Below are positions 5,378-23,931 of a stretch of DNA of 32,000 bases, piece by piece. Each line of letters opens with the position of its first letter. Position 1 is the stretch's first letter. The translations under genes were made by a program, and so were the position numbers. The notes under the pieces are model-generated. The model made no database searches, had not been told where the DNA came from, and saw only the letters and a list, made by a program, of their open reading frames with translations. Source of the stretch: an uncultured Clostridium sp. (GTDB lineage: Bacteria > Bacillota > Clostridia > TANB77 > CAG-508); assembly GCA_948473335.1 (NCBI GenBank), contig CAOKXF010000003.1, forward strand, positions 46,631 to 78,630, in the 5' to 3' direction.

Positions 5378-5488
5378 TAAAATAAAAGAAAAATAAACTT
5401 TTACAAAAAACAAGTTTGCAAAAATAAATGTTTGTCAAACAAAAACGTTCCTCTTCTTACGGAACAGCTACATTAGATATCAACATGC

Positions 5489-5642
5489 AATTGTGGAAAG
5501 TGTGTTGACACAATGTGGGAAACTAAGTTTTACACATTTGTAATATAATTGTGTGGAAATTGTAATAAGTTATCCACTAAGTTATACACAGAAGTTTTGC
5601 TAGGGATATGAACTTTCAACAAAGTTTTCCACATTATCCACA
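5489..5642. promoter_or_regulatory. oriC DnaA-box cluster (dnaA-dnaN intergenic)
   Basis: Matches to TTATCCACA: perfect at 5634-5642, abutted head-to-tail by TTTTCCACA 5625-5633. One mismatch: TTATCCACT 5570-5578 and TTATACACA 5582-5590. Two mismatches: 5492-5500, 5514-5522, 5528-5536 and 5552-5560. Confidence 0.85.
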
Positions 5643-5646
5643 GCAC

Positions 5647-5664
5647 CTACTACTACTACTACTA
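5647..5664. repeat. DnaA-trio array: (CTA)6 on the top strand, which is six 3'-GAT-5' trios on the bottom strand
   Basis: TTATCCACA-GCAC-CTACTACTACTACTACTA-AAAATATTAAATAAATT, that is box, short GC spacer, trios, then an AT-rich tract. Confidence 0.75.
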
Positions 5665-5699
5665 AAAATATTAAATAAATTATGAAGGAGATGCGTCAA

Positions 5700-6815
5700 A
5701 TGAAAATAGTTTGTTACAAGGATACAATCCTTAAAGCTATTAATTCCGTAGTAAAAGCTGTAGCATCAAAAACTACAATGCCTATATTAGAAGGAATATT
5801 AATTCAAACTAATGAAGAAGAAATCAAATTAACAACTTATGATTTAGAAATAGGTATAGAATATATAATGAAATGTGAAGTAATAGAACAAGGAAGCGTA
5901 GTTGTTAATGCTATCATGTTTAGTGAAATAATAAGAAAACTACCAGATAGTGAAATTAATATTACATTAAATAATAACAATTTACTAGTAATCGAATGTG
6001 AAGGAGCTTTATACAAATTAACAACAATGAATCCAGATGAATTTCCAGAGCTACCAAAAATTGAGGTGGAAAATTCTATTGAATTAGAACAAGGATTACT
6101 AAAAAATATGATAAGAAAAACAATATTTGCTGTAAGTTCAGAAGAAAATAGACCAATATTCACAGGATGTTTATTTGAAGTGGAAAACAATAAACTAAAT
6201 TTAGTTGCTGTTGACGGTTTTAGATTAGCATTAAGAGGAACTTATTTACAAAATAAATCAAATGACTTTTCAGCAGTTATACCTGGAAAAACTTTAAATG
6301 AAGTTAATAAAATTTTATTAGATACTTTTGAAAATGTAAAAATAGGAATATCGAAAAATCAAGCCTTGTTTGAAATGGATAATTGTAAAGTTGTTACTAG
6401 AATATTAGATGGAGAATTTTTAAATTATAGAACAGTAATACCAAATAATTGGGAAACAAGAATAAAAGTAAATAAAAATAATTTACAAAATAGTTTTGAA
6501 AGAATAAGTTTAATTGCTGCATCTTCTGTAGAGAAGGAAAAAAAGTATCCAGTTAAAGTTTCCGTAGACATTGGTAAAGTTATAATATCATGTACTAATC
6601 AAACTGGAGATGCAAAAGAAGAATTATTTGTTTCTTCTGAGGGAAAAAATATAGAGGCAGGATTCAACCCAAGATATTTCTTAGATAGTTTAAAAGCTAT
6701 TGATGAAGAAGAAATATATGTAGAATTCGGAAGTAACATTTCACCATGTTTAGTTAAGTCTGCTGAAAATAATGACTATATATATATGATATTACCAATT
6801 AGATTAAAAGATTAA
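5700..6815 (+). CDS. dnaN: DNA polymerase III beta sliding clamp
   Basis: The ORF track opens at 5682. ATG 5700 (MKIVCYKD...) lies 9 nt after GAAGGAG 5684-5690 and is the more likely start. Three-domain clamp length, with the usual position after dnaA. Confidence 0.93.
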   Translation: MKIVCYKDTILKAINSVVKAVASKTTMPILEGILIQTNEEEIKLTTYDLEIGIEYIMKCEVIEQGSVVVNAIMFSEIIRKLPDSEINITLNNNNLLVIECEGALYKLTTMNPDEFPELPKIEVENSIELEQGLLKNMIRKTIFAVSSEENRPIFTGCLFEVENNKLNLVAVDGFRLALRGTYLQNKSNDFSAVIPGKTLNEVNKILLDTFENVKIGISKNQALFEMDNCKVVTRILDGEFLNYRTVIPNNWETRIKVNKNNLQNSFERISLIAASSVEKEKKYPVKVSVDIGKVIISCTNQTGDAKEELFVSSEGKNIEAGFNPRYFLDSLKAIDEEEIYVEFGSNISPCLVKSAENNDYIYMILPIRLKD

Positions 6816-6949
6816 AAATATAAAAATTAATTAAATAAAAAATAATTATAAAAATAAATTAATAAATAATAATTATAAATAAAATTAATCAAATAAAAAA
6901 TAATTGAATAAAAATTTAACTAATAAAAAAATAATTAAAATAAAAAAAG

Positions 6950-6971
6950 TTATACACAATTGGAGAACAGA

Positions 6972-6981
<10 letters not shown>
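6950..6981. promoter_or_regulatory. inverted DnaA-box pair overlapping the recF SD and start codon
   Basis: TTATACACA (6950-6958), N14, TGTGGATAA (6973-6981, perfect reverse consensus). The recF ATG is at 6972. Confidence 0.55.
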
Positions 6982-9984
<3,003 letters not shown>

Positions 9985-9998
9985 TAATTGATAAAATT

Positions 9999-10021
9999 AA
10001 GAGCAGGATTGTCCTGCTCTT
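9999..10021 (+). terminator. GC-containing hairpin just after the gyrB stop
   Basis: AAGAGCAGG-ATTGT-CCTGCTCTT. The downstream T-tract is weak, so termination efficiency is uncertain. Confidence 0.55.
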
Positions 10022-10575
10022 ATCCATAAAACTAATAATAATTTACTGCTAAAACCAATATACATAATTTTTGAATCTAATATATATTACTATATAAATA
10101 AACTCTCAACCACATATATTCATCAGTTGCTCGACTAATAATACACTCATAAAAACCATATTCATCCCAATGGGACTATTAACAATCCTTATTAAATATA
10201 AAATTAATCTTATCTCAAATATATTACATATAATTTAACCATATAGATTTATAAATAGTAATTATTTATAGATACAGCTTACATACACATAATATATTCT
10301 TATCGCCGACATATAATAATCCATAAAAATGAACTATTATATATCTTTGCCCGAATAATAATAAACTAATTATAATCTATTAATACTCTTGGAACAACTA
10401 TTATTAATCTTATGGTATTATTATGTGTATTTTATTTTTTTTTATTCAATTTATAATTATGAAAATTATGGAATATAAATTAAATTAAAAATATAAATAT
10501 TTATTTTATTAATTATATAATAAATATTTTTTATAATTAATAAATAATCAATAAAAAATAAATTAATTTTTTATT

Positions 10576-10591
10576 TGTCGAAAAATGTCGA
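10576..10591 (+). promoter_or_regulatory. direct repeat TGTCGA-AAAA-TGTCGA (candidate operator, T4SS block 1)
   Basis: This is the only CG-containing element in several hundred bp of near-pure AT. It has a 10-bp period and lies 30 bp upstream of the candidate -35. A near-identical copy lies upstream of block 2. Confidence 0.5.
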
Positions 10592-10620
10592 TGAAAAAAT
10601 AATATAAATATAAAAAACTA

Positions 10621-10649
10621 TTGCAAAAGGAATATTAATTTGTTAATAT
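10621..10649 (+). promoter_or_regulatory. candidate sigma-A promoter for T4SS block 1
   Basis: TTGCAA, 17 bp, TAATAT. It lies about 90 bp upstream of the first cistron. Confidence 0.4.
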
Positions 10650-10737
10650 ATTTCTATAAATTTTTTAGTAATATTTTTTCAAAAGTTTAATTCGAATTTT
10701 TAATTCTATTTTATCAAAAAAATAAAGGAGGTAAAAA

Positions 10738-11301
10738 ATAAAAAACAAATATAAAATAATTCAAGACTGGATTCCTATAAATGAAATATTGGAAGAAGGA
10801 ATTATTAAATTAAAAAATAATAATTATATAAAAGTATTAAAAATAAAACCAATTAATTTTAATTTAAAATCTAATTTAGAAAAAGAATCAATTTTAAATT
10901 CATATAAAAATTTTTTAAAAGCATGTAATTTTGATATTCAAATATTAATTCAAAGTAAAAAAGAAGATTTATCAAATCATTTTTCCAAAATAAAAAATAA
11001 TTTAGAAAAAGAAAAAAATAATATATTAAATAATTATTATGATGAATATTTTTATTTTATTAATAAATTAAATAATGAAAAGAAATCATCATCAAAAAAT
11101 ATTTTATTAATAATTAAAAATAATAATATTGAAAATAATTCTTCAGAAGAAATAATAATTCAAGAATTAAATGATAAATATTTTAAAATAAAAGATTATT
11201 TATCAAGATGTGGTAATAATGTATTTGAAATAAAAAAAGAAGAATTAATTAATATTTTATTTTCTTATTTTAATATTAATAAATATCAAAAAATAAATTA
11301 A
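10738..11301 (+). CDS. VirB4-family ATPase, N-terminal segment as a separate cistron (apparent ATA start)
   Basis: The frame is open from 10735. IKNKYKIIQDWIPINEILEEGIIKLKNNNYIKVLKIKPINFNLKSNLEKESILNSY matches the N-terminal signature of Firmicute VirB4 proteins (CD1110/Tn916-Orf16 type). That motif lies upstream of the first TTG (10789). AAAGGAGG precedes ATA 10738 by 6 nt. Confidence 0.65.
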   Translation: MKNKYKIIQDWIPINEILEEGIIKLKNNNYIKVLKIKPINFNLKSNLEKESILNSYKNFLKACNFDIQILIQSKKEDLSNHFSKIKNNLEKEKNNILNNYYDEYFYFINKLNNEKKSSSKNILLIIKNNNIENNSSEEIIIQELNDKYFKIKDYLSRCGNNVFEIKKEELINILFSYFNINKYQKIN

Positions 11302-11315
11302 AAAAGGAGTAAGAA

Positions 11316-13199
11316 ATAATAGAAAAATATATAAATAAATTAAAAAACAAAATAAAAAAAATATTAAAAAGTATTTTTACAGTTAGAGAAAATAATATAA
11401 AAAAAATAGATTTTTATGAAGGCGAATTTTCAAAAAAAGATTATTTATTACCTTCATATATAAATTTAGAAAATCCAAATTATATAGAAATTGATAATAT
11501 ATATTATTCAACATTAATTGTTGTAAATTATTATAGAGAACAAAGTGAAATATTATTAAAAAATTTAATAGAAAATAATATAAATATTAATATATCTATT
11601 TTTTACGAAAAACAAAATACTTATAAAACAATTAATGATTTAACATATCATATAGGTAATGTAGGCGTGGATATAAAAAATAATAATAACAGAAAAGATA
11701 TAGATATTGCTTCATATACATATAATGATGCTAAATATATTAGAAAAGAAATGCAAGTTAATAATGAAGAAATGTATTTTTTATATATTTATTTAAATAC
11801 ATATTCTAATGATAAAAAAGAATTAGAATATTTAATAGATAAAATAGAAGGATTATCTCAAAGTAGAGGTATGCAGACGAGAAAAGGTACATTTAGGCAA
11901 GAACAATGTTTTTTATCTTGTTTACCTATTATGAATAATGAGAGTGAAATAAAAGAAGTAGCGAAAAGAAATATTTTGACAAGTGGATTATCTTCAACAT
12001 ATCCTTTTATATCATCATCTATTTATGATGAAGAAGGTATTTTTATAGGTACTAATATTTATAATAATTCATTAATTTTTATAGATAGATATGATACAAA
12101 AAAATATAAAAATGCAAATATGTGTATTTTTGGGACAAGTGGCGCAGGAAAATCTTTTTATACAAAATTATTAATATTAAGATATAGATTATTAGGAATA
12201 GAGCAATATGTAATAGATCCAGAAAGAGAATATAATATATTGGGAGAAAATTTAAATGCAACAATAATTAAATTAGGTCCGAATTTTAACAATTATATTA
12301 ATATATTTGATATAAGAAAAGAAAGCATAGAGGAAAATGAAAACGGATATTTAGCAACAAAAATTTCTAAATTAATAGGATTTTTTAATTTGATTTTTGG
12401 AAATTTAGATGAAGAAGAAAAGGCTATTTTGGAAGAAAAAATAATAATGATTTATAAAGAAAAAAATATTACATTTGAAGATGACACATTATACAAAGAA
12501 GAAAATAATAAAATAATTTTTAAGGTTAGCACAGATATGCCAAAATTAGAAGATTTATATCGTATATGTGGACAAGATGAAAGAACTAAAAAATTAAAAA
12601 TAAAAATGATTCCGTTTGTAAAAGGTTCACTAAATTTTTTAAATAATTATACTAATATTGAATTAAATAATAAATTAATAATTGCAGATATTTATGATTT
12701 AGGTGAAGAAAATTTAAAATACGGAATGTATATATTTACAGAACTATTTTGGGATAAAATCAAATTAAATAGAAATATAAAAAAAGCAATTTATTTAGAT
12801 GAAATTTGGAGATTAATAGGTGTAACTTCTAATAGAGATGTTGCAAAATTTATTTACAAGATTTTTAAAACAATAAGAAAATATGGTGGCAGTAGTGTTG
12901 CAATTACACAGGATATTTCTGATTTATTTAGTCTAGAAGATGGAATATATGGAAAAAGTATTCTAAATAATTCTAGCATAAAAACATTTTTTTCTCTAGA
13001 AGAAGAAAATATAAATGTATTATCTAAATTTATTAATTTATCAGAAAAAGAAAAAGTCGAAATTAAATCTTTAAAAACAGGAGAATGTTTAATGTGTGTT
13101 GCAGATAATCATATTTTGAGTAAAATAGAATCAAGTGATTTTGAAAAAAATATTATTGAAAAAATAATAAAGGATAATTATTATTTAAATAATGATTAA
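11316..13199 (+). CDS. VirB4-family conjugation/T4SS ATPase, middle and C-terminal ATPase segment (apparent ATA start)
   Basis: The frame is open from 11313 with no ATG/GTG/TTG before 11667. The conserved region DYLLPSYINLENPNYIEIDNIYYSTLIVVNYY lies upstream of the GTG. AAGGAG precedes ATA 11316 by 6 nt. Walker A IFGTSGAGKS, VIDPEREY, Walker B IYLDEIWRL, ITQDISD. Confidence 0.85.
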   Translation: MIEKYINKLKNKIKKILKSIFTVRENNIKKIDFYEGEFSKKDYLLPSYINLENPNYIEIDNIYYSTLIVVNYYREQSEILLKNLIENNININISIFYEKQNTYKTINDLTYHIGNVGVDIKNNNNRKDIDIASYTYNDAKYIRKEMQVNNEEMYFLYIYLNTYSNDKKELEYLIDKIEGLSQSRGMQTRKGTFRQEQCFLSCLPIMNNESEIKEVAKRNILTSGLSSTYPFISSSIYDEEGIFIGTNIYNNSLIFIDRYDTKKYKNANMCIFGTSGAGKSFYTKLLILRYRLLGIEQYVIDPEREYNILGENLNATIIKLGPNFNNYINIFDIRKESIEENENGYLATKISKLIGFFNLIFGNLDEEEKAILEEKIIMIYKEKNITFEDDTLYKEENNKIIFKVSTDMPKLEDLYRICGQDERTKKLKIKMIPFVKGSLNFLNNYTNIELNNKLIIADIYDLGEENLKYGMYIFTELFWDKIKLNRNIKKAIYLDEIWRLIGVTSNRDVAKFIYKIFKTIRKYGGSSVAITQDISDLFSLEDGIYGKSILNNSSIKTFFSLEEENINVLSKFINLSEKEKVEIKSLKTGECLMCVADNHILSKIESSDFEKNIIEKIIKDNYYLNND

Positions 13200-13252
13200 T
13201 AAATTAATGATTTTATAAATAATAATAAAATATTATTTGGAAAAGGAAAAAA

Positions 13253-14218
13253 ATGAATAACATATTAGTTGCAATTTATAATCAAAAAATTTATGAAGAA
13301 TTACTAGAAGAAAAAAATATAAATATTATTAATAAAAATATTTTATATAAAGAAGGAATTCTTGAAATATTAGAAAAAAATTTTGAAATAAATTTTATAA
13401 TAATAAATGAAAAAATTCCAGGAGAAATAGAAATAATTAATTTAATAGATAAAATTAAAGAAATTAATAATAATATAAAAATAATATTAATAACAAAAGA
13501 AAATAAATATAAAAAAGATAATATATTTTTATTAAAGGAAGAAAATAAAAGAGATATATTAGATATAATTGAGAATAAAAAAGAATTGAAAAATGAAAGA
13601 GAAGAAATTATACAAATAGAAAAAATAAAAAAACAAATAGATGAAAAATTATTTTTTATAAAAGGAAATTCTGGTTCAGGAAAAAGTATAGTAGCTTCTA
13701 TATTAAGTTACCAAATATCAAAAATGGATAAAAAAGTATTATTAATAGATGGTGACATAGAGAAAGGAAATATTCATACAATATTTCAAGTAAAAAAATA
13801 TATAAATAGAACACAAAAAATATATAATAATTTATATTTTATTAATACAAATCAAGAAGAAATAATAAGAAAGGTTTTAACAGAAAAATATGATATTTTA
13901 ATTTTTGATAATTTTAATAAAAATTATATATTAGAAATAAATCATATAAATATTTATATATTGGAATCAAATTTAATTGAAATAGAGAAATTAAAAAATA
14001 ATATTACAGACAATTATTATAATGATTTTTTTATTATCAATAAATATAATAAAAATTCTATTGATGAAAAAATAATAGAAAATATATTTGAAAATAAAAA
14101 TATTTTAAAAATAAAATATAGTGACATTTATAATTCTTTAATAAATAATTTTAAGATGAAAAAAGACAACTTATATTTAAAAAGAATATATAAAAATGCA
14201 ATAAAAAAAATAATTTAA
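13253..14218 (+). CDS. ParA/MinD-superfamily P-loop ATPase with an N-terminal receiver-like (pseudo-receiver) domain, CpaE/TadZ-like architecture
   Basis: 321 aa. The N-terminal roughly 90 aa have a receiver-like beta/alpha pattern but carry NE (IIINEKIPG) where the phospho-Asp would be. The C-terminal half has IKGNSGSGKS and LLIDGD. Confidence 0.65.
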   Translation: MNNILVAIYNQKIYEELLEEKNINIINKNILYKEGILEILEKNFEINFIIINEKIPGEIEIINLIDKIKEINNNIKIILITKENKYKKDNIFLLKEENKRDILDIIENKKELKNEREEIIQIEKIKKQIDEKLFFIKGNSGSGKSIVASILSYQISKMDKKVLLIDGDIEKGNIHTIFQVKKYINRTQKIYNNLYFINTNQEEIIRKVLTEKYDILIFDNFNKNYILEINHINIYILESNLIEIEKLKNNITDNYYNDFFIINKYNKNSIDEKIIENIFENKNILKIKYSDIYNSLINNFKMKKDNLYLKRIYKNAIKKII

Positions 14219-14237
14219 TAAAAGGAGAAAAAAATAA

Positions 14238-14981
14238 ATGAATATACAAAATGAACTAGTAAAGGAAAAAAATTTAGAAATGAATGATCAAATAGAAACT
14301 AAACAAAAGAATTTTTTAGATTCTACTTTTGGAAAAATAATTAATAATGCAACTGACATTGGAATAAGATATTTATTACCAGATATAATAGAAGATGAAG
14401 TGATAGAAATAAAAGATGCATTATTTCAGAGTGGTTTTAAAGAAGCAATAAATACAGCCATTGATAGAGCTATTGATATGGGGAAAAGTGCTATCGGAAT
14501 TATAACAGGAAAATTCGATAATGTAACGCAAATACAAACAGCTGTAGAAAATGGAGGTATTATAGATTCTGTTTCTAATGTTCTAGATAATGTTGTTAAT
14601 AAGGCAAAAGATAAAGGATTAATTGATAAACCAGTAGCTAATATAATTAAAACAGGAAAAAATACTATTTTAGATAATGTTAGTAAAAATATAAAAGATA
14701 CTTTGACACAACAAGTTAAAGATGTAGAAAAGCTAGAGAGTTATGCTGAAAGTTGGAAAAAGTTCTACAGGGAACAAAATTTTAATGGTATGGAAAAAGA
14801 ATATAAAAAGATAGAAGAGAAGTTAACAAATCTAATTCCTTTGGAAAAGACTATTAATATGTCTAGAGAAATTCAAACAATTCATAATTTAATAAAAAAT
14901 AATGGACATAATTTTAATTTATCTTATGATGATTTAGCATTAGTAGAAAAATTTAATGAACTAGACAAAAATTCTATTTGA
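14238..14981 (+). CDS. hypothetical protein (predicted helical, soluble, no signal peptide or TM segment)
   Basis: 247-aa ORF with GGAG 10 nt upstream. By eye it is more GC-rich than the preceding cistrons. I recognise no family. Confidence 0.6.
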   Translation: MNIQNELVKEKNLEMNDQIETKQKNFLDSTFGKIINNATDIGIRYLLPDIIEDEVIEIKDALFQSGFKEAINTAIDRAIDMGKSAIGIITGKFDNVTQIQTAVENGGIIDSVSNVLDNVVNKAKDKGLIDKPVANIIKTGKNTILDNVSKNIKDTLTQQVKDVEKLESYAESWKKFYREQNFNGMEKEYKKIEEKLTNLIPLEKTINMSREIQTIHNLIKNNGHNFNLSYDDLALVEKFNELDKNSI

Positions 14982-15073
14982 ATTAAGGGTTAGTAAAAAT
15001 TTTTGGTAGGGTTATTTTGACTAATTATGTAAAATATGGTATAGTAAAGAATAAATGTATAGGAGGTTTTCAT

Positions 15074-15313
15074 ATGCTAAAAATATTAACACCAGAAGAA
15101 ATAGCACGGGAAAAGGAACAAATAAAAAGAAATCTATTATTATTAAGAGAATGCAAAGAATTAATAGGATTATCCACAAGAGAAATTCAAAAAAGACAAA
15201 GAGAATTGATTATTTCCAATGGGCGTGAATACTTAGATGAAGTTTTTTTTTCAAGGAAGTATTTAGAAGAAGCTAATGGAAATATCGAACTGGCAGCAGA
15301 ATTAATGATTTAA
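15074..15313 (+). CDS. small hypothetical protein (79 aa) with a UBA-like C-terminal helix pair
   Basis: AGGAGG 15061-15066 lies 7 nt before ATG 15074; the track's 15017 start is less likely. The C-terminal KYLEEANGNIELAAELMI resembles the EF-Ts-type UBA motif. Resemblance only. Confidence 0.55.
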   Translation: MLKILTPEEIAREKEQIKRNLLLLRECKELIGLSTREIQKRQRELIISNGREYLDEVFFSRKYLEEANGNIELAAELMI

Positions 15314-15381
15314 ATTTACACACCAAAAATTTAATTATCCGTGCGAGAAGAACCAAAAAAGGAAAGATGATTATCTATTGG

Positions 15382-15408
15382 AAAAGTCGCTGTAAAAGGC
15401 GATTTTTT
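15382..15408 (+). terminator. hairpin plus T-run ending block 1
   Basis: AAAAGTCGC-TGTAAAAG-GCGATTTTTT, with one mismatch in the stem. Confidence 0.5.
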
Positions 15409-15478
15409 CATTGATATATAGTGTATTTTTAATGAAAAAAATTTAAATAAAAATAAAGAAAAAAATAGACAAAAAACC

Positions 15479-15507
15479 TTGCAAAACCTGTATCCGTATA
15501 ATATAAT
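15479..15507 (+). promoter_or_regulatory. dedicated gyrA promoter
   Basis: TTGCAA (15479-15484), 17 bp, TATAAT (15502-15507). It lies about 40 bp upstream of the gyrA ATG. Confidence 0.6.
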
Positions 15508-15544
15508 ACACATATAAAAGATAAAGAAGAAAGAGGGAGAAACA

Positions 15545-17998
15545 ATGGATGAAGAAAAACAAGAGGGAATAATAATACAAAGAGACATCGATGAAGAAAT
15601 GAAAACCTCATATATCGACTATGCGATGAGCGTTATAGTGCAACGTGCATTACCAGATGTAAGAGATGGATTAAAACCAGTACATAGAAGAATTTTATAT
15701 GCAATGCATGAAGATGGAATTACATCAGACAAGCCATATAGAAAGTGTGCGAATACAGTAGGATCAGTATTAGGAAGATATCATCCTCATGGAGATAGTT
15801 CAGTTTATGATGCAATGGTAAGAATGGCACAAGATTTTTCTATGCGATATATGTTAATTGATGGTCATGGGAATTTTGGTTCAATCGATGGTGATGGAGC
15901 AGCAGCGATGAGGTACACAGAAGCAAGAATGTCAAAGATATCAGAATTTATGTTGACAGATATAGAAAAAAATACAGTAGATTTTATGCCAAACTATGAT
16001 GATAGATTACAAGAACCTACAGTATTACCTGCACAAATTCCAGCATTATTAGTAAATGGTTCATCTGGTATTGCCGTAGGTATGGCGACCAATATACCAC
16101 CACATAATTTAACAGAAGTTATCAACGGAATAATAAAAATAATAGATGAAGATGAAGTAACAGATGAAGATTTAATGGCGGTCATAAAAGGACCAGATTT
16201 TCCTACGGAAGGAATAATTCTAGGAATTGAAGGTATAAAGGAAGCATATAAAACGGGAAGAGGAAAAATTACTGTTAGAGCAGAAGCTGAAATAGAAGAA
16301 ATGCAAGGAAATAAGCAAAGAATAATAGTATCATCTTTACCATATCAAGTAAATAAAGCAAGGTTAATAGAAAATATTGCACATTTAGCTAGAGAAAAAC
16401 GTATTGAAGGAATATCAGAAATGCGTGATGAATCAGATAGAAATGATAGAGTAAGAATTGTAATAGAACTAAAAAGAGATGCAAATCCACAAGTAGTATT
16501 AAATCAATTATATAAAAATACACAAATGCAAGATACTTTTGGAATAATAATGTTAGCACTAGTAGATGGAGAACCTAAAATTTTAACTTTAAGACAATGT
16601 TTAGACTGTTATATAGAACATAGGAAACATGTAATTTTACGTAGAACGCAATTTGAATTAGATAAAGCATTAGCAAGAGCTCATATCTTAGAAGGATTAA
16701 AAATAGCTTTAGATAATATAGATGAGGTTATTAATATAATACGTAATTCATATGATGATGCAAAAGAGAAATTAATGGAAAGATTTGGACTTTCTGAAAT
16801 ACAAGCACAGGCTATATTAGATATGAGACTAAAAACATTATCAGGATTACAAAGAGAAAAAATAGAAGAAGAATATAAGCAATTAATGGAATTAATAGCA
16901 CATTTAAGAGACATCTTAAATAGTGAAAAATTAGTATTTGATATTATAAAAGAAGAACTTATAGCTATTAGAGACAAATTTGGAGATGAAAGAAAAACAA
17001 AAATAGTTGCAGCAGAAGGAGAAATAGATGTTGAAGACTTAATAAAAGAGGAACAAACAGTTATTGCTCTAACACATTTTGGATATATAAAGAGAATGCC
17101 AGTCGATACATATAGAAGTCAAAAACGTGGAGGAAAAGGAATAACAGGAATTGAAACTAGAGAAGAAGATTTTGTAAAACAAATATTTACAGCATCAACA
17201 CATGATACAATACTATTCTTTACAAATAAAGGAAAATTATATAGATTAAGAGGATATGAAGTGCCAGAAGCAGGAAGAACTGCAAAAGGAACAGCAATAG
17301 TAAATTTATTAAGTTTGGATTCTGGAGAAAAAGTATCAGCTATAATACCAATACAAAACTTTGCTGAAGGTAAATATTTATTAATGGCAACAAAAAATGG
17401 ATTAATAAAGAAAACAGCATTAGGAGAGTATAATTCATCTCGAAAAACGGGATTACAAGGTATAACATTAAAAGAGGATGATGAATTAATATCTGTAAGA
17501 CTTACGGATGGTGAGGATAACATCGTATTAGTTACAAGAAATGGTATGTGTATAACATTTGATGAAAAAGATGTACGACCAATAGGTAGAGTTTCTCAAG
17601 GTGTTATAGGTATTAGATTAGATGAAGATGATGAAGTAATTGGAATGGAATCTATAATAGCTGGTAGCAAGTCTACACTTCTTACTATAACTGAAAATGG
17701 ATTTGGAAAGAGAACAGAATTAGATGAATATAGAGTTCAAATAAGAGGAGGAAAAGGAGTTATAACATATAAAATAACACCAAAAACAGGAAAGCTAGTA
17801 GGAGCTAGGATAGCAAGTGAAGACGAAGATGTAATGTTAATTACAGATAGTGGAACAATTATAAGATTAAATGTAAATGATATTAGTGTTTTAGGTAGAC
17901 CTACACAAGGAGTTACTCTTATGAGAACATCAGATGGTGGAAAAGTTGTAAGTATTGAAACTATTTTAACAGATGATAACAAATCAGAAGAAGAATAA
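15545..17998 (+). CDS. gyrA: DNA gyrase subunit A
   Basis: 817 aa; [16 protein letters not shown], active-site region [11 protein letters not shown]-terminal beta-pinwheel repeats. Confidence 0.97.
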
Positions 17999-18018
17999 AA
18001 AAACAAAATATGAAAAAT

Positions 18019-18051
18019 AAAAAGAAGAAATTTAAAGTTTCTTCTTTTTTT
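18019..18051. terminator. bidirectional terminator between convergent gyrA and the helicase-loader gene
   Basis: AAAAAGAAGAAA-TTTAAAG-TTTCTTCTTTTT, with A/T runs on both sides. Confidence 0.7.
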
Positions 18052-18067
18052 ATATAAATACTATATA

Positions 18068-19069
18068 TTATTTAAATCTTAAATCTTCTCCAAAAAAATA
18101 ATAAATATCATAGTATCCACCAATTCTTGAACATATGCGTTCCTCATATTTACTTAAGATTTCATTCATATTTAAATTAGTAGAAATTATTGTTTTCGTA
18201 CATTTTGAATTTAGGTTCAATAGACGTGTATTTAAAATAGAGAATAATTCACTTATTTTCATACCATTTATATATTCTGTTCCTAAATCATCTATTATTA
18301 ATAAATCTACTTCTAAAATATTTTTATAGAATAAATCCTGTTCAGAATTTTTATATTTATTAAATTTATTATCTATAAGAGTTTCTAATAAAACAGGAGC
18401 TGTTTGGTAAAGTACACTATAACCTTTATTTAATATTTCTTTTGCAATACAATTTGTCATAAAGGTTTTTCCTGAGCCAGTATTTCCAGTAAATAGCAAG
18501 TTTTTATAATTAGGATTATTGAAATTGTCTATGAACTTTATACATTTTTCTTTAATATTTAAAATATTTGTTCTTGGTGATATATTTAACTTATATTTTG
18601 CTAAATTTACTTCATTTGAAAATTTATTTTCATTGAATGTAGAGAAGTTTTCTTTTTGTAAATTACACATATTAGATTTATTATATGATATGTCTAATAG
18701 TTTTTGCTTTAAACAATTACACATTTCAGTTCGGTTATTTTCAATAGTTATATATCCTGTATCTTTACATACATTGCATTCATACAGTGGTTTTAAGTAA
18801 GTTTCTGGAATATGATTTTCTGATAAAATCTGCTTTTTTTGTTTTTTCAAATTTTCAATTTTTGTATTTATATCATTTAAATTGTTAGATGAATTTAATA
18901 ATATATCTTTTGCAGACTGTATAGAATATTTATTTAATTCATCATCAATTTTTTGCAATTCAGGTATAGTTTTATATAGATTATTCTTTCGATTATCCAA
19001 ATCTAATTCTGATTTCATTCTCTTTCGTTCATATTCTTGTAATAAAGAATCTAATATTTCATTAGACAT
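18068..19069 (-). CDS. DnaC/DnaI-like replicative helicase loader (AAA+ with an N-terminal Cys cluster)
   Basis: GGAGG lies 5-6 nt before ATG 19069 (MSNEILDSLL...). CNVCKDTGY...CNC zinc-type motif, Walker A FTGNTGSGKTF, Walker B LLIIDDLG. Confidence 0.8.
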   Translation of the reverse strand: MSNEILDSLLQEYERKRMKSELDLDNRKNNLYKTIPELQKIDDELNKYSIQSAKDILLNSSNNLNDINTKIENLKKQKKQILSENHIPETYLKPLYECNVCKDTGYITIENNRTEMCNCLKQKLLDISYNKSNMCNLQKENFSTFNENKFSNEVNLAKYKLNISPRTNILNIKEKCIKFIDNFNNPNYKNLLFTGNTGSGKTFMTNCIAKEILNKGYSVLYQTAPVLLETLIDNKFNKYKNSEQDLFYKNILEVDLLIIDDLGTEYINGMKISELFSILNTRLLNLNSKCTKTIISTNLNMNEILSKYEERICSRIGGYYDIYYFFGEDLRFK

Positions 19070-20045: not shown

Positions 20046-20072
20046 ATTTATTCCCCCTACTGATTTTGTCAA

Positions 20073-20101
20073 ATTATATCATTTTAAGGGAAATAAAACA
20101 A
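20073..20101 (-). promoter_or_regulatory. candidate extended -10 promoter for the dnaD-like/dnaC-like pair
   Basis: The minus strand reads TTGTTT, 17 bp, TG-A-TATAAT. It lies in the 60-bp gap between the PrgI-like stop and the dnaD-like start. Confidence 0.4.
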
Positions 20102-20105
20102 GAGA

Positions 20106-20405
20106 TTAAGAAGTTTTTCTTGGGACTTTTTTAAATACATAAACTTTTGGTCTTAGAAAGTATTTTACTATGTACTTTAACACATATATTATATTTTCTC
20201 CGTTAAAACCAATGATACTAAATAATAAAAGAGGAAAAGACAGTAATATAAATACAAATATTTTTATTTTTAAGTTTATTGAAAATATACTTAATAGTGC
20301 CCAAACTAATATATACCAAATAATATTAAATATTGCTGTAGAATAATCGAGTATTCCTAATATTTTGGATTTAAAATTATAATTTTGTGGAAATATAAAT
20401 TTCAA
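20106..20405 (-). CDS. PrgI/TcpE-family (VirB3-like) small membrane protein
   Basis: 99 aa. TTG start 7 nt after GGAGG. N-terminal FPQNYNFKSKILGILDYSTAIFN followed by two TM helices. It sits next to the VirB6-like gene, as in Firmicute conjugative elements. Confidence 0.55.
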   Translation of the reverse strand: MKFIFPQNYNFKSKILGILDYSTAIFNIIWYILVWALLSIFSINLKIKIFVFILLSFPLLLFSIIGFNGENIIYVLKYIVKYFLRPKVYVFKKVPRKTS

Positions 20406-20409
20406 TAAA

Positions 20410-21276
20410 TCACCTCCTTATTCCCACAGAGTGTGAAATATTTGTGGAAATTCCACCTATAAATTCACGTACAAATGAATTTGCTTTTATTAAGGCATAA
20501 ATTGCTCCTATATATAGAAATTTTACTAGTAAATTTCCTGATGAATAATCCATTGAAAATATGACTAATAAAACTAGTGATACTACTATTTGAATAAAAA
20601 GTAATGAAAATAGATTTTTAATCCAGGATTTAAAAAACCAAGAAGTAGAAGAAATTGATAATGATAATATTGCAAAAGGGGTTATTAATACAAATATTTT
20701 TATCATTATATATCTAAATGAATAAGAGAATATTAATGATAGTAAAGAAATAGAGAGTGTTGATTTTATTATTCCATCTAGTGAAAAAATATTTAATGAA
20801 GTAGAGTCAATTGATATTGTTGAATTTATTGTATTTATTAGTGTTGAAAAACAAATTTGAGTATTAAATAGAGTTTCTCCTAAATTTCTTATAGATAGTG
20901 TTATTGTAGAAAATAAAGATAAAAATTGTTCTAGTATGAAATATGAAAAGTTCATACATGTTCCACATATAACTAATTTAAAGATAAATTGATATGGAGA
21001 TTCTATTTGTAAAGAATTTAAATGTGACATTAAATATTTTATTGAATAATATAGTAAAAAACCTAATAAAAAAGAATTAGATATTAATAATATTCCATCT
21101 GATAATGATGTTCCTAATATTTTTTCGAAATATTTATCTATCAATATGTCTTCACTTATAAATGTTATATCATCTAATACGCCATATAGATTATTGTCTA
21201 TTGAAGAAAAAAGATTTTGAAGTATAGTATTTATTGTATTCATAATTGTATCTGTTATATTTGCTGTTTCTTCCAA
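20410..21276 (-). CDS. VirB6/TrbL-like polytopic membrane protein
   Basis: 288 aa. TTG start after GGAGG. Soluble N-terminal helix followed by at least five hydrophobic helices. Its size and position match CD1112-type VirB6 proteins. Confidence 0.6.
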   Translation of the reverse strand: MEETANITDTIMNTINTILQNLFSSIDNNLYGVLDDITFISEDILIDKYFEKILGTSLSDGILLISNSFLLGFLLYYSIKYLMSHLNSLQIESPYQFIFKLVICGTCMNFSYFILEQFLSLFSTITLSIRNLGETLFNTQICFSTLINTINSTISIDSTSLNIFSLDGIIKSTLSISLLSLIFSYSFRYIMIKIFVLITPFAILSLSISSTSWFFKSWIKNLFSLLFIQIVVSLVLLVIFSMDYSSGNLLVKFLYIGAIYALIKANSFVREFIGGISTNISHSVGIRR

Positions 21277-21285
21277 AAGACCTCC

Positions 21286-21615
21286 TTATGATATTAATGA
21301 TTTTATGGCAGATAAAATTAAATCGGTTGCTAATATAAAGCCATAGGAAAATAAAGAACCTCTTATAATCTTTTTTCCTGTTTTTATTTTTTCTTCATCA
21401 CCAAAACTGAATTTTTTAATAAATATTCCTGAACCTATAGCTACTGCAGCAGCTGGAGTAGCTAAGTTTATTAGCCATCCAGAGATATTTTCAAAAGCAT
21501 TGTTAATCTTTGATATTAATTTTGGGGTAGATGCTTGTACAGATGGTGTTAGAAAAAGTATAAAGAAAATAGAAATTATTACCAATTGTATAAGAATATA
21601 TTTCTTATTTGTCAT
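21286..21615 (-). CDS. VirB2/TrbC- or Maff2-like small secreted membrane protein (pilin-like)
   Basis: 109 aa. Signal peptide ending VQA/S, then two hydrophobic helices split by the charged loop KKFSFGDEEKIKTGKK. The start overlaps the upstream ATPase gene by 11 nt. Confidence 0.5.
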   Translation of the reverse strand: MTNKKYILIQLVIISIFFILFLTPSVQASTPKLISKINNAFENISGWLINLATPAAAVAIGSGIFIKKFSFGDEEKIKTGKKIIRGSLFSYGFILATDLILSAIKSLIS

Positions 21616-23326
21616 TATTTTCTCCTTTCGTTTTTAAAAAATATGGAAACATTTGTAATTTGCAAGGTTTTAAGATTTTTGTTCCATCTGATAAAAATGC
21701 AAGGCTGTGAAAGGTTTCTAGTTTTTGTGTAAAATAGTTTGTGTCATATACGAAATCATTTTGTGTGTATGTATTATAGCTTTCAGATACATTAGAATCT
21801 TGAGAGTTAAATGTGTTTGTTATATAGCTAAACTTTGTTGTTTTTGCACTTTCTGAAATAGTTTGTGAGGTCTTCTCTTTTTCTTCTTTCCCTAGCTGTT
21901 TTTGTGCTTCTTCTATTGTGAAAGTGTCATCGGTTCTAAACCATATTTTGTTTATTAAGTTTTGAATTATAACTTTTGTAGATGTGTCATCATGTAATGT
22001 GTTTTTTAGAGATGAATAACTTTGTGTGCTTACTATATTTATACATTTAGCTTCTCTACTTAGTGAAAAAAATTGACTATCTGATTTTGTGATATATTCA
22101 GAATATTCGTCACAAATGAAAGCAGTTTTCTTCTTTATGTTTTTTGAAAGAGTAGAAAGTATTTCAGTTTGAAAATCTAGTTTTAGATATGCTGCAATTA
22201 TTTTTGATAGATTCTTGTATTCTGAGATGTTCATATTTAATATTACTATTTTACCATTTAGTATTGTGTCCTCAAATCCTGTAAAAGTAAGTTCATTTTC
22301 TTGCGGACAGAAGGTTTTGGCGATATCATAATCTGAAACAAATATATTTGTTATCCTAGTAATTTCTGATTTTAGAATAGATAAAGTTCTTTGATCTAAA
22401 GAAAATAATTCTTTTTGAAAAAATTCTAACGAAGAGTTTAAATTATATATTTCTTGTACAGATAATTTTGCCTGAATAAATAGATTTCTTAAAGTTTCTA
22501 TTTTTTCTTTATAGTAATCAGGTAGTGTTATTAATTTGTGTATTTCCGTAAAATTTACATAGCCATTATTGTATAATCTACATATTTTAATGCATTCTGC
22601 TAATGTTTGTTCAGCTTTATCTAACCAATAAGATTCTTGATTATTTTCTGAAAATAATTCTAATATAGTTCTAAGCCTATTTGCTAAGACTTGAGGCCTT
22701 AAATGGGGTTTGTGTAAAGGGTTATAACGTATATCAGAATTTAATTCTATTATTATTAAATCATCTTCTAGGTTGTTGTTTTTTACATATTTTTTTACTT
22801 GCTCATAATAATTTCCTTTTACATCTAATATTAGCATTCCTATTTTATCATTTTGATTATTCTTGTTGTATTTGATTAACTGTTCTGTAAATGGATACAT
22901 GGCAGAACTGGTTTTACCTGATCCTATTGTACCAGTAATTAAAAAATTTTGATATAATCCTAATTCAGAAATATATATTGTTTTATTATTAGTAATATCT
23001 TCTCCTATTAGTAAATTTAATTTTGTTTGAGGTTTGTTATTATCATTATCTTGGATATTAATATGCTTATTTGCTAATTTAAAAAGATTATTATAAATGA
23101 AATTAGCTAGTACAATATTAGAAAATATAAAAGTAATTATAAAACTTATTTTTATATAGTTCCAAAGTTGAGGATTTGTATCACATATATTGAATGGATG
23201 TATTCCATATGTTATTATTATCTGGTCTGCTTTAAAAATAGGTAAAAATGTAATTATCCCTAATAAAAAACATATTATTAGAAATACTAATATAAAAGTG
23301 AACCTATTTAAATGATTTTTTATTAT
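21605..23326 (-). CDS. type IV coupling protein-like ATPase (VirD4/TraG/TraD family), apparent ATA start
   Basis: The track ORF starts at M 22900, but the frame is open up to 23326. That upstream stretch encodes two N-terminal TM helices and the Walker A GTIGSGKTSSA, which sits immediately before that M. No ATG/GTG/TTG is in frame upstream. AAGGAGG precedes ATA 23326 by 5 nt. LILDVKGNYY; Walker B AFICDEYSEY. Confidence 0.8.
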   Translation of the reverse strand: MIKNHLNRFTFILVFLIICFLLGIITFLPIFKADQIIITYGIHPFNICDTNPQLWNYIKISFIITFIFSNIVLANFIYNNLFKLANKHINIQDNDNNKPQTKLNLLIGEDITNNKTIYISELGLYQNFLITGTIGSGKTSSAMYPFTEQLIKYNKNNQNDKIGMLILDVKGNYYEQVKKYVKNNNLEDDLIIIELNSDIRYNPLHKPHLRPQVLANRLRTILELFSENNQESYWLDKAEQTLAECIKICRLYNNGYVNFTEIHKLITLPDYYKEKIETLRNLFIQAKLSVQEIYNLNSSLEFFQKELFSLDQRTLSILKSEITRITNIFVSDYDIAKTFCPQENELTFTGFEDTILNGKIVILNMNISEYKNLSKIIAAYLKLDFQTEILSTLSKNIKKKTAFICDEYSEYITKSDSQFFSLSREAKCINIVSTQSYSSLKNTLHDDTSTKVIIQNLINKIWFRTDDTFTIEEAQKQLGKEEKEKTSQTISESAKTTKFSYITNTFNSQDSNVSESYNTYTQNDFVYDTNYFTQKLETFHSLAFLSDGTKILKPCKLQMFPYFLKTKGENNDK

Positions 23327-23564
23327 GAGAACCTCCTTATCTTTAATTTTAATTTTGCACCTTGTTGGTTATGGAAAATTTTTATTTCAAAAAATGTATA
23401 TATTGAATATAAAGTTATTAAAATATTAATAAAATAGATTATAAAAAAAATGTTGATTAATTTTAAAATGTGATTTCACCGCCTTGCAGTTTGGATAATA
23501 TAATATTTTTTTTCATTTGTCTATACTTTTTATAAAAAATATGATAAAATATATAAAAACTTTA

Positions 23565-23579
23565 CGACAAAATTCGACA
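23565..23579 (-). promoter_or_regulatory. direct repeat TGTCGA-ATTT-TGTCG (second copy of the candidate operator)
   Basis: The minus strand reads ATGTCGAATTTTGTCGT. It has the same half-site, 10-bp period and orientation relative to the T4SS genes as 10576-10591. It also overlaps the likely promoter of the divergent DUF1858 gene. Confidence 0.5.
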
Positions 23580-23610
23580 TTTATAATTATAATAGAAAGG
23601 GGATGAGTTT

Positions 23611-23796: not shown

Positions 23797-23866
23797 TGTA
23801 ATTGTAATAGGTAATAGTAAATAATATACAGAAAGTTACAAAATAGTAAAATTTTAAAAAAATCTA

Positions 23867-23895: not shown

Positions 23896-23931
23896 ATAAG
23901 GGCGTTGTGTAGTTAACAAACGCAAGGTGAT

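What the first reader, a model, noticed from the sequence alone, without database searches (positions are those of the whole stretch)
10724..11318. All three T4SS ATPase cistrons appear to initiate at ATA behind strong Shine-Dalgarno sites
Conserved N-terminal sequence lies upstream of the first ATG/GTG/TTG in three cistrons. In VirB4-N it is the WIPINEILEEG motif. In VirB4-C it is the DYLLPSYINLENPNYIEIDN region. In the coupling protein (start 23326, minus strand) it is two TM helices plus the whole Walker A GTIGSGKTSSA. In each case the open frame begins only a few codons upstream, and a strong SD sits 5-6 nt before an ATA. The three sites read AAAGGAGG-taaaaa-ATA (10738), AAGGAG-taagaa-ATA (11316) and AAGGAGG-ttctc-ATA (23326). 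The VirB6-like and VirB3-like genes use TTG. That leaves only the VirB2-like gene, among the six core T4SS cistrons, with an ATG start. ATA (AUA) is a very rare bacterial initiator that IF3 normally discriminates against. Three independent occurrences with identical SD geometry look systematic. They may act as a built-in low-expression or IF3-sensitive gate on the energising ATPases. Alternatively they may be parallel ATG-to-ATA decay under AT mutation pressure that is still tolerated.
Basis: seen in the sequence. Interest (0 to 1): 0.75.

Follow-up and report, generated by a model that had tools for sequence, protein, structure and literature searches.

The report
ATA/ATT start codons on secretion-system ATPases
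Three genes that power a chromosomal type IV secretion system in an uncultured gut Clostridia lineage almost certainly begin at the weak start codon ATA behind an unusually strong ribosome-binding site. This arrangement recurs across many related species, which points to a built-in brake on how much of these motor proteins is made.

Summary
At 10738, 11316/11319 and 23323 (minus strand), an ATA follows an extended Shine-Dalgarno site. No ATG, GTG or TTG lies upstream of conserved protein sequence. Independent assemblies carry the same bases, so this is not a sequencing error.

I compared 165 related loci (2.1 Mb). They comprise 80 species-level genomes and 80 metagenome contigs.

- **Distinct orthologous start regions with ATA/ATT/ATC and no canonical codon 3-11 nt after a strong SD:** coupling protein 34 of 42, VirB4-C 45 of 58, VirB4-N 38 of 62.
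- **The same test in non-T4SS neighbour genes** (gyrB, dnaN, dnaI-like and others): 4 ATH against 235 canonical.
- **Hard cases:** in 18 orthologues an in-frame stop lies within one codon upstream of the ATH.
- **Existing annotation:** an NCBI record already annotates one coupling-protein orthologue from ATA.

ATH starts have longer SDs at the optimal 7-8 nt spacing. Orthologues that use ATG place it only 3-4 nt from the SD.

This is the known mechanism of translational attenuation by a near-cognate start codon plus an extended SD, as in infC, pcnB and S. aureus ccpN/cvfC1. Here it applies to three cistrons of one machine.

The attenuating or IF3-sensing function is inferred, not tested.

The parts
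10724..10732 (+). Extended Shine-Dalgarno site AAAGGAGGT for VirB4-N
   Evidence: It has an 8-nt match to AAGGAGGT. The GGAGG core ends 6 nt before ATA 10738. The site is conserved in a 98% relative and in orthologues as GGAGGTGA.
10738..10740 (+). ATA, the inferred start codon of VirB4-N
   Evidence: The frame opens at 10735, after TAA 10732-10734. The next canonical codon, TTG 10789, is TTA in a 98%-identical relative. It also lies after the conserved W-I-P motif. Of 62 distinct orthologous sites with a strong SD, 38 have ATA or ATT here.
10738..11301 (+). VirB4-N cistron (187 aa), the N-terminal domain of a split VirB4
   Evidence: NCBIfam NF045971 model positions 2-174 match it, E 2.9e-9. 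Pfam TraC-like is recorded on the public gene call.
11304..11309 (+). Shine-Dalgarno site AAGGAG for VirB4-C, in the 11-nt gap after the VirB4-N stop codon
   Evidence: The site is conserved in a 98% relative.
11316..11321 (+). ATA ATA, the two candidate start codons of VirB4-C (5 or 8 nt from the SD core position)
   Evidence: The frame opens at 11313, after TAA 11310-11312. The first canonical codon is GTG 11667, codon 118. Orthologues carry ATG, ATA or ATT at the equivalent position. Of 58 distinct sites, 45 are ATH.
11316..13199 (+). VirB4-C cistron (about 626 aa), carrying the ATPase domain with Walker A GTSGAGKS
   Evidence: Pfam P-loop_TraG 4.4e-18 and AAA_10. NCBIfam NF045971 model positions 175-730, 280 bits. 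Homologues are about 600-620 aa, so the split is conserved.
23331..23338 (-). Extended Shine-Dalgarno site AAGGAGGT for the coupling protein
   Evidence: The site is identical in orthologues L011, L012 and L179 and in most of 43 distinct leaders.
23321..23323 (-). ATA, the conserved inferred start codon of the coupling protein, 8 nt after GGAGG
   Evidence: The codon is kept in L011, L012 and L179. The upstream ATA (23324-23326) is TAA, TCA or AGA in those loci. In L011 and L013 the frame opens exactly at this ATA, and the NCBI record behind L011 annotates it as the start.
21605..23323 (-). VirD4-type coupling protein cistron (572 aa): two predicted TM helices and Walker A GTIGSGKT
   Evidence: Pfam TrwB_AAD_bind 1.5e-12 and TraG-D_C 7e-7. 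There are 5612 homologues, and the full-length ones are 549-579 aa.
20410..21276 (-). VirB6-like 288-aa gene with a TTG start 4 nt after AAGGAGGT
Evidence: TTG is the start in 44 of 50 distinct orthologues.
20106..20405 (-). VirB3-like 99-aa gene with a TTG start 7 nt after AAGGAGGT
   Evidence: Some orthologues use ATA or ATT. The family assignment is not tested.
21286..21615 (-). Pilin-like 109-aa gene with an ATG start
   Evidence: Pfam T4SS_pilin 3.4e-5, below the gathering score. Start codon.
23351..23364 (-). Invariant non-coding block CAAGGTGCAAAATT upstream of the coupling-protein SD
   Evidence: The consensus CAAGGT[TG]CNAAATT is conserved in 20 of 20 aligned leaders, at a variable distance from the SD. 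No conserved fold was found. Its function is unknown.

Best explanation
The three cistrons VirB4-N, VirB4-C and the VirD4-type coupling protein are real, expressed genes whose translation starts at a near-cognate AUA codon.

**Proposed mechanism.** The 30S subunit is held by an extended Shine-Dalgarno pairing (6-9 nt of AAGGAGGTGA) placed mostly 7-8 nt upstream of the start in orthologues; the window's own candidate ATAs lie 5-8 nt away. Initiator tRNA pairs with only two of the three bases of the start codon, so initiation is inefficient. Published reporters give about 10-30% of AUG in S. aureus and 0.02-3% in E. coli. Initiation at such codons is also subject to IF3 proofreading and to nutrient state.

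**Predicted result.** A low output of the T4SS motor proteins that may also depend on growth state, independent of transcription.

**What is shown and what is inferred.**
- Shown: the sequence arrangement, its conservation, and its specificity to these gene families.
- Shown: no canonical start codon is available in many orthologues.
- Inferred from published work on other genes: the reduction in translation.
- Inferred from comparative patterns: selection for low output.
For: **Coding sequence upstream of any canonical start.**
- The sequence and frames are as described.
- Conserved coding sequence lies upstream of the first ATG/GTG/TTG.
- The bases are identical in independent assemblies.
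- Many distinct orthologues have no canonical codon between the frame opening and the conserved motifs: CP 31 of 45, VirB4-C 41 of 80, VirB4-N 18 of 70.
- In 18 orthologues an in-frame stop lies within one codon of the ATH.

**Specificity to the ATPase genes.**
- With an SD of at least 6 nt, ATH-only starts number 117 against 36 canonical in the three families.
- In all other families the count is 12 against 369.
- In non-T4SS families it is 4 against 235.

**Geometry of the start sites.**
- In-frame ATH fills 28-48% of positions against 6-8% out of frame.
- 80% of ATH starts have an SD of 7 nt or more, against 33% in control genes. Their spacing peaks at 7-8 nt.
- Orthologues that use ATG place it 3-4 nt from GGAGG in 78% of cases, against 9% in controls. 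This is a second way to weaken initiation.

**History and annotation.**
- ATH is retained with few state changes on the trees.
- An NCBI record annotates the ATA start in one CP orthologue.

**Literature.**
- S. aureus infC, ccpN, citZ and cvfC1 use AUA or AUU with extended SDs. Reporters give about 10-30% of AUG (PMC13009471).
- Non-AUG starts are sensitive to nutrient limitation and ppGpp (PMC5499595).
- Near-cognate codons gave 0.02-3% of AUG across the E. coli reporter constructs (bioRxiv 10.1101/063800).
Against: - There is no direct evidence of the N-termini. The organism is uncultured, and no proteomics or ribosome profiling was available.
- The third base of the start codon is mostly A or T, like synonymous sites. 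Fourfold sites are A 52%, T 38%, C 6%, G 4%. Part of the pattern could therefore be mutation bias acting on a weakly selected site.
- ATG occurs in about a third of VirB4-N orthologues, so ATH is not obligatory.
- Counts across species are not phylogenetically independent, so the Fisher p-value overstates the evidence.
- The calling rule needs a recognisable SD. 10-23 members per family had none of at least 6 nt and were left unclassified.
- For VirB4-C, termination-reinitiation after VirB4-N could contribute.
Confidence: 0.7

Rival explanations
1. **Tolerated decay.** ATG mutated to ATA or ATT under strong AT mutation pressure. The change persists only because very little of these proteins is needed. 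The weak start has no regulatory role, and the strong SD is simply what keeps the genes working.
For: - The genome is 24% G+C.
- Third bases at the start codon are mostly A or T, like fourfold sites.
- The state has flipped several times: a minimum of 3-8 changes per family.
- ATG orthologues exist and their proteins are equally conserved.
Against: - Neighbouring genes under the same mutation pressure keep canonical starts almost without exception: 235 canonical against 4 ATH.
- ATC, which runs against AT pressure, makes up 3 of 34 distinct CP starts, or 12 of 63 before de-duplication.
- ATG-using orthologues have an abnormally short SD spacing, which plain decay does not explain.
- The same state occurs in three separate cistrons in two operons.
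- This rival differs from the best explanation only in whether low output is selected. The start codons themselves are the same.
Confidence: 0.22
2. **Translational coupling, for VirB4-C only.** Ribosomes that terminate at the VirB4-N stop codon reinitiate a few nucleotides downstream. Start-codon identity then matters little for this cistron.
For: - The VirB4-N stop and the VirB4-C start are 14-17 nt apart in the window.
- In orthologues, the distance from the VirB4-N stop to where the VirB4-C frame opens ranges from -38 to +80 nt.
Against: - VirB4-N and the coupling protein are first cistrons with no upstream ORF, yet they show the same ATH-plus-SD arrangement.
- VirB4-C keeps its own strong SD at the optimal spacing.
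- The VirB4-C frame carries a stop downstream of the VirB4-N stop, so frameshift fusion of the two is impossible in the window.
Confidence: 0.1
3. **Truncated products or pseudogenes.** Translation really starts at the downstream TTG, GTG or ATG, as public gene callers assume.
For: Public gene calls for this genome give 170, 510 and 431 aa.
Against: - The 431-aa product would lack both TM helices and Walker A.
- The skipped regions contain invariant residues across the 13- and 14-sequence alignments.
- TTG 10789 is TTA in a 98% relative.
- The downstream codons have no SD.
- ORFs are intact in the species-level genomes and metagenome contigs retrieved.
Confidence: 0.02
4. **Sequencing or assembly error, or a changed genetic code.** In the second case AUA would be read as Met.
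For: None was found.
Against: - Independent samples carry the same bases.
- ATT and ATC occupy the same position in other species.
- ATA is abundant at conserved Ile positions inside the same genes.
Confidence: 0.01

Closest known systems
S. aureus and B. subtilis ccpN (AUA), S. aureus cvfC1 (AUU), citZ (AUA) and infC (AUA): conserved non-canonical start codons with extended SD motifs (PMC13009471)
   Same: - The host is also a Bacillota.
- The start is a near-cognate AUA or AUU.
- The SD is extended at a suitable spacing.
- The non-canonical codon is conserved across species.
- The reported effect is attenuation to about 10-30% of AUG.
   Different: - Those are single regulatory or metabolic genes confirmed by retapamulin ribosome profiling and reporters.
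- Here three cistrons of one secretion machine in two operons are involved.
- AUA, AUU and AUC interchange across species.
- The evidence is comparative only.
E. coli infC (AUU, IF3 autoregulation) and pcnB (AUU, expression limited by an inefficient start codon)
   Same: A weak start codon sets a low or IF3-dependent level of the product. The pcnB paper appears in the reference list read. IF3 autoregulation of infC is stated in the text read.
   Different: - infC is a feedback loop on IF3 itself.
- Nothing here links the T4SS ATPases to IF3 other than the codon.
- E. coli does not rely on extended SDs in the same way.
Gram-positive type conjugation T4SS ATPases: VirB4 of the CD1110 family (NCBIfam NF045971) and VirD4/TrwB-type coupling proteins
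   Same: The domain content and motifs match.
   Different: - VirB4 is split into two cistrons.
- The genes are chromosomal, next to the replication origin, and conserved across species rather than carried on an obvious mobile element.
- No report of ATH starts in T4SS ATPases was found in three full-text searches.

Membership tests
Translational attenuation by a near-cognate start codon plus an extended SD (infC, pcnB, ccpN, cvfC1 type) | The start codon is AUA, AUU or AUC rather than AUG, GUG or UUG. | tested here: met
   This is inferred from ORF constraints. No canonical codon lies upstream of conserved sequence. In some orthologues an in-frame stop sits directly before the ATH. There is no direct protein evidence.
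Translational attenuation by a near-cognate start codon plus an extended SD (infC, pcnB, ccpN, cvfC1 type) | An extended SD sits at a functional spacing. | tested here: met
   The window has 6-8 nt SDs at 5-8 nt spacing. In orthologues 80% have an SD of at least 7 nt, and spacing peaks at 7-8 nt.
Translational attenuation by a near-cognate start codon plus an extended SD (infC, pcnB, ccpN, cvfC1 type) | The non-canonical codon is conserved among orthologues. | tested here: met
   Among distinct sites with a strong SD, the ATH share is CP 34 of 42, VirB4-C 45 of 58 and VirB4-N 38 of 62. Few state changes are needed on the trees.
Translational attenuation by a near-cognate start codon plus an extended SD (infC, pcnB, ccpN, cvfC1 type) | Translation is lower than with AUG. 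| not testable with these tools
   This needs reporter fusions. Published values come from other genes only.
Translational attenuation by a near-cognate start codon plus an extended SD (infC, pcnB, ccpN, cvfC1 type) | Initiation depends on IF3 or growth state. | not testable with these tools
   This needs IF3 titration or medium-shift experiments. infC of this lineage is not in the window or in the loci held.
VirB4 family T4SS ATPase (NCBIfam NF045971, CD1110 family) | The full-length match reaches the curated cut-off of 325 bits. | tested here: not met
   Because of the split, neither piece reaches the cut-off alone. The N piece scores 35.8 bits on model positions 2-174. The C piece scores 280.5 bits on positions 175-730. 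Together they cover the model end to end.
VirB4 family T4SS ATPase (NCBIfam NF045971, CD1110 family) | A P-loop NTPase domain with Walker A is present. | tested here: met
   Pfam P-loop_TraG scores 65.5 bits and AAA_10 53.8 bits, both above their gathering scores. GTSGAGKS is invariant.
VirD4/TrwB-type coupling protein | An N-terminal membrane anchor is followed by a Walker A NTPase and a TrwB/TraG-D domain. | tested here: met
   Pfam TrwB_AAD_bind scores 47.6 bits (gathering score 20.5) and TraG-D_C 29.7 bits (22). Two hydrophobic segments and GTIGSGKT are seen in the translation and are conserved. TM topology was not predicted with a dedicated tool.
T4SS structural genes (VirB2, VirB3 and VirB6 equivalents) | Recognisable family matches are found. 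| tested here: inconclusive
The pilin-like gene matches T4SS_pilin at 24.3 bits, below the gathering score of 26.6. The 288-aa and 99-aa genes have no Pfam or NCBIfam hit.

The most novel reading that the evidence does not exclude
Weak AUH initiation, paired with an extended and optimally spaced SD, is actively selected on all energising ATPase cistrons of a vertically inherited, origin-proximal T4SS in this uncultured gut Clostridia lineage. It would act as a post-transcriptional gate sensitive to IF3 or nutrient state. It would set motor-protein levels relative to structural subunits, or switch the machine on in particular growth states. Species that reverted to AUG would compensate by moving it too close to the SD.
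Probability: 0.35. Interest if true: 0.7.

Novelty: new member of a known kind. Interest (0 to 1): 0.58.

Why it matters
**Annotation.** Common gene callers accept only ATG, GTG and TTG. The public calls for this genome are therefore truncated to 170, 510 and 431 aa. The 431-aa coupling-protein call lacks its membrane anchor and Walker A. Full-length versions of this genome's three proteins are absent from a 15-billion-protein collection. Many close relatives are truncated in the same way. Function prediction and T4SS detection in this abundant gut lineage are affected.

**Translation biology.** The data form a large natural experiment. Three gene families were sampled across 165 loci, including about 80 species-level genomes. 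The start codon toggles among AUA, AUU, AUC and AUG, with correlated changes in SD length and spacing. This could test how start-codon strength and SD geometry trade off outside model organisms.

**T4SS biology.** The pattern suggests that motor ATPase dosage is controlled at initiation. It also points to a domesticated chromosomal T4SS of unknown role in uncultured gut Clostridia.

Tried and rejected
- **Plasmid search.** A megablast of window 10000-24000 against plasmids found nothing, so this is not a known plasmid-borne T4SS.
- **Rfam.** A scan of the whole window found only four tRNAs, so no known leader or riboswitch is present.
- **Leader structure.** A consensus fold of 20 coupling-protein leaders gave zero predicted pairs. 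I dropped the idea of a structured translational switch in that leader.
- **Promoter scans.** The consensus scans were uninformative in this AT-rich DNA: 18 hits against 20.9 expected.
- **First clustering attempt.** Clustering without composition correction merged unrelated low-complexity families. I redid it.
- **False positives in the automatic near-cognate class.** Inspection showed internal SD-like sites in orf247 and CorA, and conserved upstream DNA in dnaN. I did not count these as ATH starts.
- **Genome-wide use of ATH starts in this lineage.** Rejected: non-T4SS neighbour genes show 4 ATH against 235 canonical.
- **GTG inside the GGAGGTGA SD as the VirB4-N start.** Rejected: in several species the same SD supplies an in-frame TGA stop, yet the ATA geometry is unchanged.
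- **Exact look-up of M-start full-length proteins.** None was found.
- **Literature.** Searches for ATA or ATT starts in T4SS genes, and for a split VirB4 in Clostridia, found nothing relevant. The TANB77 pilin paper concerns a Tad-type pilus, not this system. I did not test whether the window belongs to TANB77.
Full report
**What is in the window**

The window is 24.4% G+C. It covers a chromosomal replication-origin region.
- Plus strand: dnaA 4025-5377, dnaN, recF and gyrB 8020-9984.
- Then a terminator-like hairpin (9998-10022) and a 750-nt gene-free stretch.
- Then VirB4-N, VirB4-C, a ParA-like gene and two small ORFs, followed by gyrA 15545-17998.
- Minus strand: dnaI-like, dnaD-like, a 99-aa gene, a 288-aa gene, a pilin-like gene and a VirD4-type coupling protein (CP).

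The source is an uncultured gut Clostridia genome. The same sequence occurs on contigs from several independent samples.

**Checking the observation**

- VirB4-N: AAAGGAGGT (10724-10732), an in-frame TAA, then AAA and ATA (10738). The first canonical codon is TTG at 10789, after the conserved DWIPINEILEEG.
- VirB4-C: AAGGAG (11304-11309), an in-frame TAA, then GAA and ATA ATA (11316/11319). The first canonical codon is GTG at codon 118.
- CP: AAGGAGGT (23338-23331), then ATA ATA (23326/23323). The first ATG is residue 143, after Walker A.

NCBIfam's CD1110-type VirB4 model maps positions 2-174 onto the N piece and 175-730 onto the C piece. The two cistrons are therefore the two halves of one VirB4, and both N-termini lie in modelled sequence.

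Assemblies from other samples are identical at the sites they cover.

A 98% relative keeps the SD and ATA of VirB4-N but has TTA where the window has TTG 10789. It also keeps the SD and ATA ATA of VirB4-C.

In three CP orthologues at 75-90% identity, the first ATA is replaced by AGA, TCA or TAA. The second ATA, 8 nt after GGAGG, is kept.

**Orthologues**

Both ATPases belong to very large families of uncultured Clostridia proteins.
- CP has 5612 hits, and the full-length ones are 549-579 aa.
- VirB4-C has 5697 hits of about 600-620 aa. The VirB4 split is therefore ancestral.

Some orthologues start with ATG or TTG at the position that aligns with the window's ATA. Examples are MKKIKKYL... for VirB4-C and LKKRLIF... 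for CP.

The closest relatives are truncated in public gene calls. This is what a caller restricted to ATG, GTG and TTG would produce.

One NCBI record (GCA_017458285.1) annotates the CP orthologue from ATA. There the reading frame opens exactly at that ATA, directly after an in-frame TAA.

**Census**

I fetched 80 species-level genome loci around VirB4-C and 80 metagenome loci around CP. With earlier loci this gave 165 loci and 2.1 Mb.

ORFs were grouped into families. For each ORF I asked which in-frame codon lies 3-11 nt after the strongest SD of at least 6 nt. After removing duplicate start regions:

| Family | ATH only | Canonical | Neither |
|---|---|---|---|
| CP | 34 (16 ATA, 15 ATT, 3 ATC) | 4 | 4 |
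| VirB4-C | 45 (23 ATA, 22 ATT) | 9 | 4 |
| VirB4-N | 38 (33 ATA, 5 ATT) | 23 | 1 |
| GyrB | 0 | 45 | |
| DnaN | 0 | 35 | |
| DnaI-like | 0 | 36 | |
| VirB6-like | 0 | 50 (44 TTG) | |
| VirB3-like | 5 | 44 | |
| Pilin-like | 3 | 40 | |
| All non-T4SS families together | 4 | 235 | |

The contrast is 117:36 against 12:369, an odds ratio of about 100. The nominal p-value is not corrected for shared ancestry.

Further results:
- In-frame ATH fills 28-48% of codon positions 4-10 nt behind these SDs, against 6-8% out of frame.
- Many distinct orthologues have no canonical codon between the frame opening and the conserved motifs: CP 31 of 45, VirB4-C 41 of 80, VirB4-N 18 of 70.
- In 18 orthologues the in-frame stop lies within one codon of the ATH.
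- Inspection removed false positives of the automatic class in orf247, CorA and dnaN.
- Within the window itself, only these three of about 30 ORFs show the pattern.

**Geometry and history**

| Start type | SD of 7 nt or more | Spacing from GGAGG |
|---|---|---|
| ATH starts of the ATPase genes | 80% | peak at 7-8 nt |
| Canonical starts of control genes | 33% | broad peak at 5-8 nt |
| Canonical starts of the ATPase genes | not compared | 3-4 nt in 32 of 41 (78%) |

Only 9% of control genes have a spacing of 3-4 nt.

On neighbour-joining trees, the minimum number of ATH/canonical changes is 3 for CP, 5 for VirB4-C and 8 for VirB4-N. ATH is therefore the long-held majority state, not a recent event in this genome.

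Within a genome, the states of VirB4-N and VirB4-C are not tightly linked. That argues against a genome-wide factor.

The third base of these start codons is mostly A or T. This resembles fourfold sites, which are A 52%, T 38%, C 6% and G 4%. Mutation bias probably shapes which ATH is present.

**Mechanism**

The best-supported reading is initiation at a near-cognate AUH codon, enabled by an extended SD. This is a known mechanism.
- In S. aureus, infC, ccpN, citZ and cvfC1 use conserved AUA or AUU with extended SDs. Reporters give about 10% of AUG, and up to 30% in rich medium (PMC13009471).
- In E. coli reporters, AUA, AUU and AUC gave 1-2% of AUG in the first construct and 0.02-3% across the others.
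- Non-AUG mRNAs are especially sensitive to nutrient limitation and ppGpp (PMC5499595).

By analogy, the T4SS motor proteins would be made at a low level that may depend on growth state. That this is selected rather than merely tolerated is suggested by three results:
- the specificity to the ATPase genes;
- the stronger SDs;
- the short-spacing ATG variants.

It is not proven.

**Rivals**
- Tolerated decay under AT pressure differs only in whether low output is selected. I give it about 0.2.
- Translational coupling could add to VirB4-C initiation. It cannot explain VirB4-N or CP, which are first cistrons.
- Frameshift fusion of the two VirB4 pieces is impossible in the window. The C frame carries a stop downstream of the N stop.
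- Truncated products, pseudogenes, sequencing error and a changed code are excluded by conservation, by independent assemblies, and by ATT and ATC at the same position.

**Comparison and novelty**

The mechanism is of a known kind. The new element is its systematic use on three cistrons of one secretion machine across many species, with AUA, AUU and AUC interchanging.

Three full-text searches found no report of such starts in T4SS ATPases.

It also exposes a systematic annotation error. This genome's three proteins are truncated in public gene calls, and full-length versions are absent from the protein collection.

**Limits**
- All evidence is comparative.
- Loci cover only about 20 kb around the T4SS genes, so specificity was tested against roughly 20 neighbouring families, not whole genomes.
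- Members without a recognisable SD were left unclassified.
- The VirB3-like and VirB6-like names, and the taxonomic placement beyond "uncultured gut Clostridia", were not tested.

Noticed in passing
window 10738-13199; loci L017-L096: VirB4 is split into an N cistron of about 190 aa and a C cistron of about 615 aa. The C piece has its own SD in the short gap. The split is conserved in thousands of homologues, so it is an ancestral architecture and not a broken gene.
   Followed up: partly
window 4025-23326; L012, L013, L015, L177: The T4SS genes lie in the chromosomal origin region, between gyrB and gyrA, and in a row with dnaD-like and dnaI-like genes. The arrangement recurs in many species-level MAGs from rabbit, chicken, mouse, human (Hadza) and roe deer guts. 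No relaxase or integrase was seen nearby. This looks like a vertically inherited T4SS of unknown role.
   Followed up: partly
window 23351-23364 (minus) and about 23375-23420 (minus): The invariant non-coding block CAAGGT[TG]CNAAATT lies 20-45 nt upstream of the CP SD in all 20 aligned leaders. A further conserved stretch, TTTATATTCAATTTATAC...TTTTTTGAAAT, lies upstream of it. No conserved RNA fold was found. It may be a promoter or operator, or the 5' end of the mRNA.
   Followed up: partly
window 10577-10597 (plus); orthologues: Direct repeats TGTCGAAAAATGTCGA lie about 130 nt upstream of the VirB4-N SD. Orthologues carry TGTCGA motifs next to a consensus TTCTTGACAA -35-like element. This may be an operator for a transcription factor.
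   Followed up: no
loci L017-L176: Orthologues of the three ATPase genes that use ATG, GTG or TTG place it only 3-4 nt after GGAGG in 32 of 41 cases. Only 9% of control genes do so. This may be an alternative way of weakening initiation.
   Followed up: partly
window 20410-21276 (minus); The VirB6-like gene starts with TTG in 44 of 50 distinct orthologues, behind AAGGAGGT. In one clade (L013, L100, L105, L106) the VirB3-like and pilin-like genes also use ATA or ATT. Weak starts extend beyond the ATPases within the T4SS.
   Followed up: partly
window 10789-11301, 11667-13199, 21605-22900: Public gene calls for this genome truncate the three proteins to 170, 510 and 431 aa. The CP call loses both hydrophobic segments and Walker A. 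Full-length M-start versions are not in the 15-billion-protein collection.
   Followed up: yes
window 9985-10737: The gene-free stretch of about 750 nt between gyrB and VirB4-N is unusually long for this compact region. It begins with a G+C-rich hairpin at 9998-10022 that looks like a terminator. Nothing else in it was identified.
   Followed up: no
L011 11845-13275: In the roe-deer MAG GCA_017458285.1, an IS element (DDE_Tnp_IS240) sits directly after the CP gene. The pilin, VirB6-like and VirB3-like genes are not downstream, so the operon is rearranged there.
   Followed up: no
window 8020 vs 8071: The longest gyrB ORF starts at ATG 8020. The SD-supported ATG is 17 codons downstream and gives the 637-aa public call. 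This is an ordinary start-choice ambiguity.
   Followed up: no
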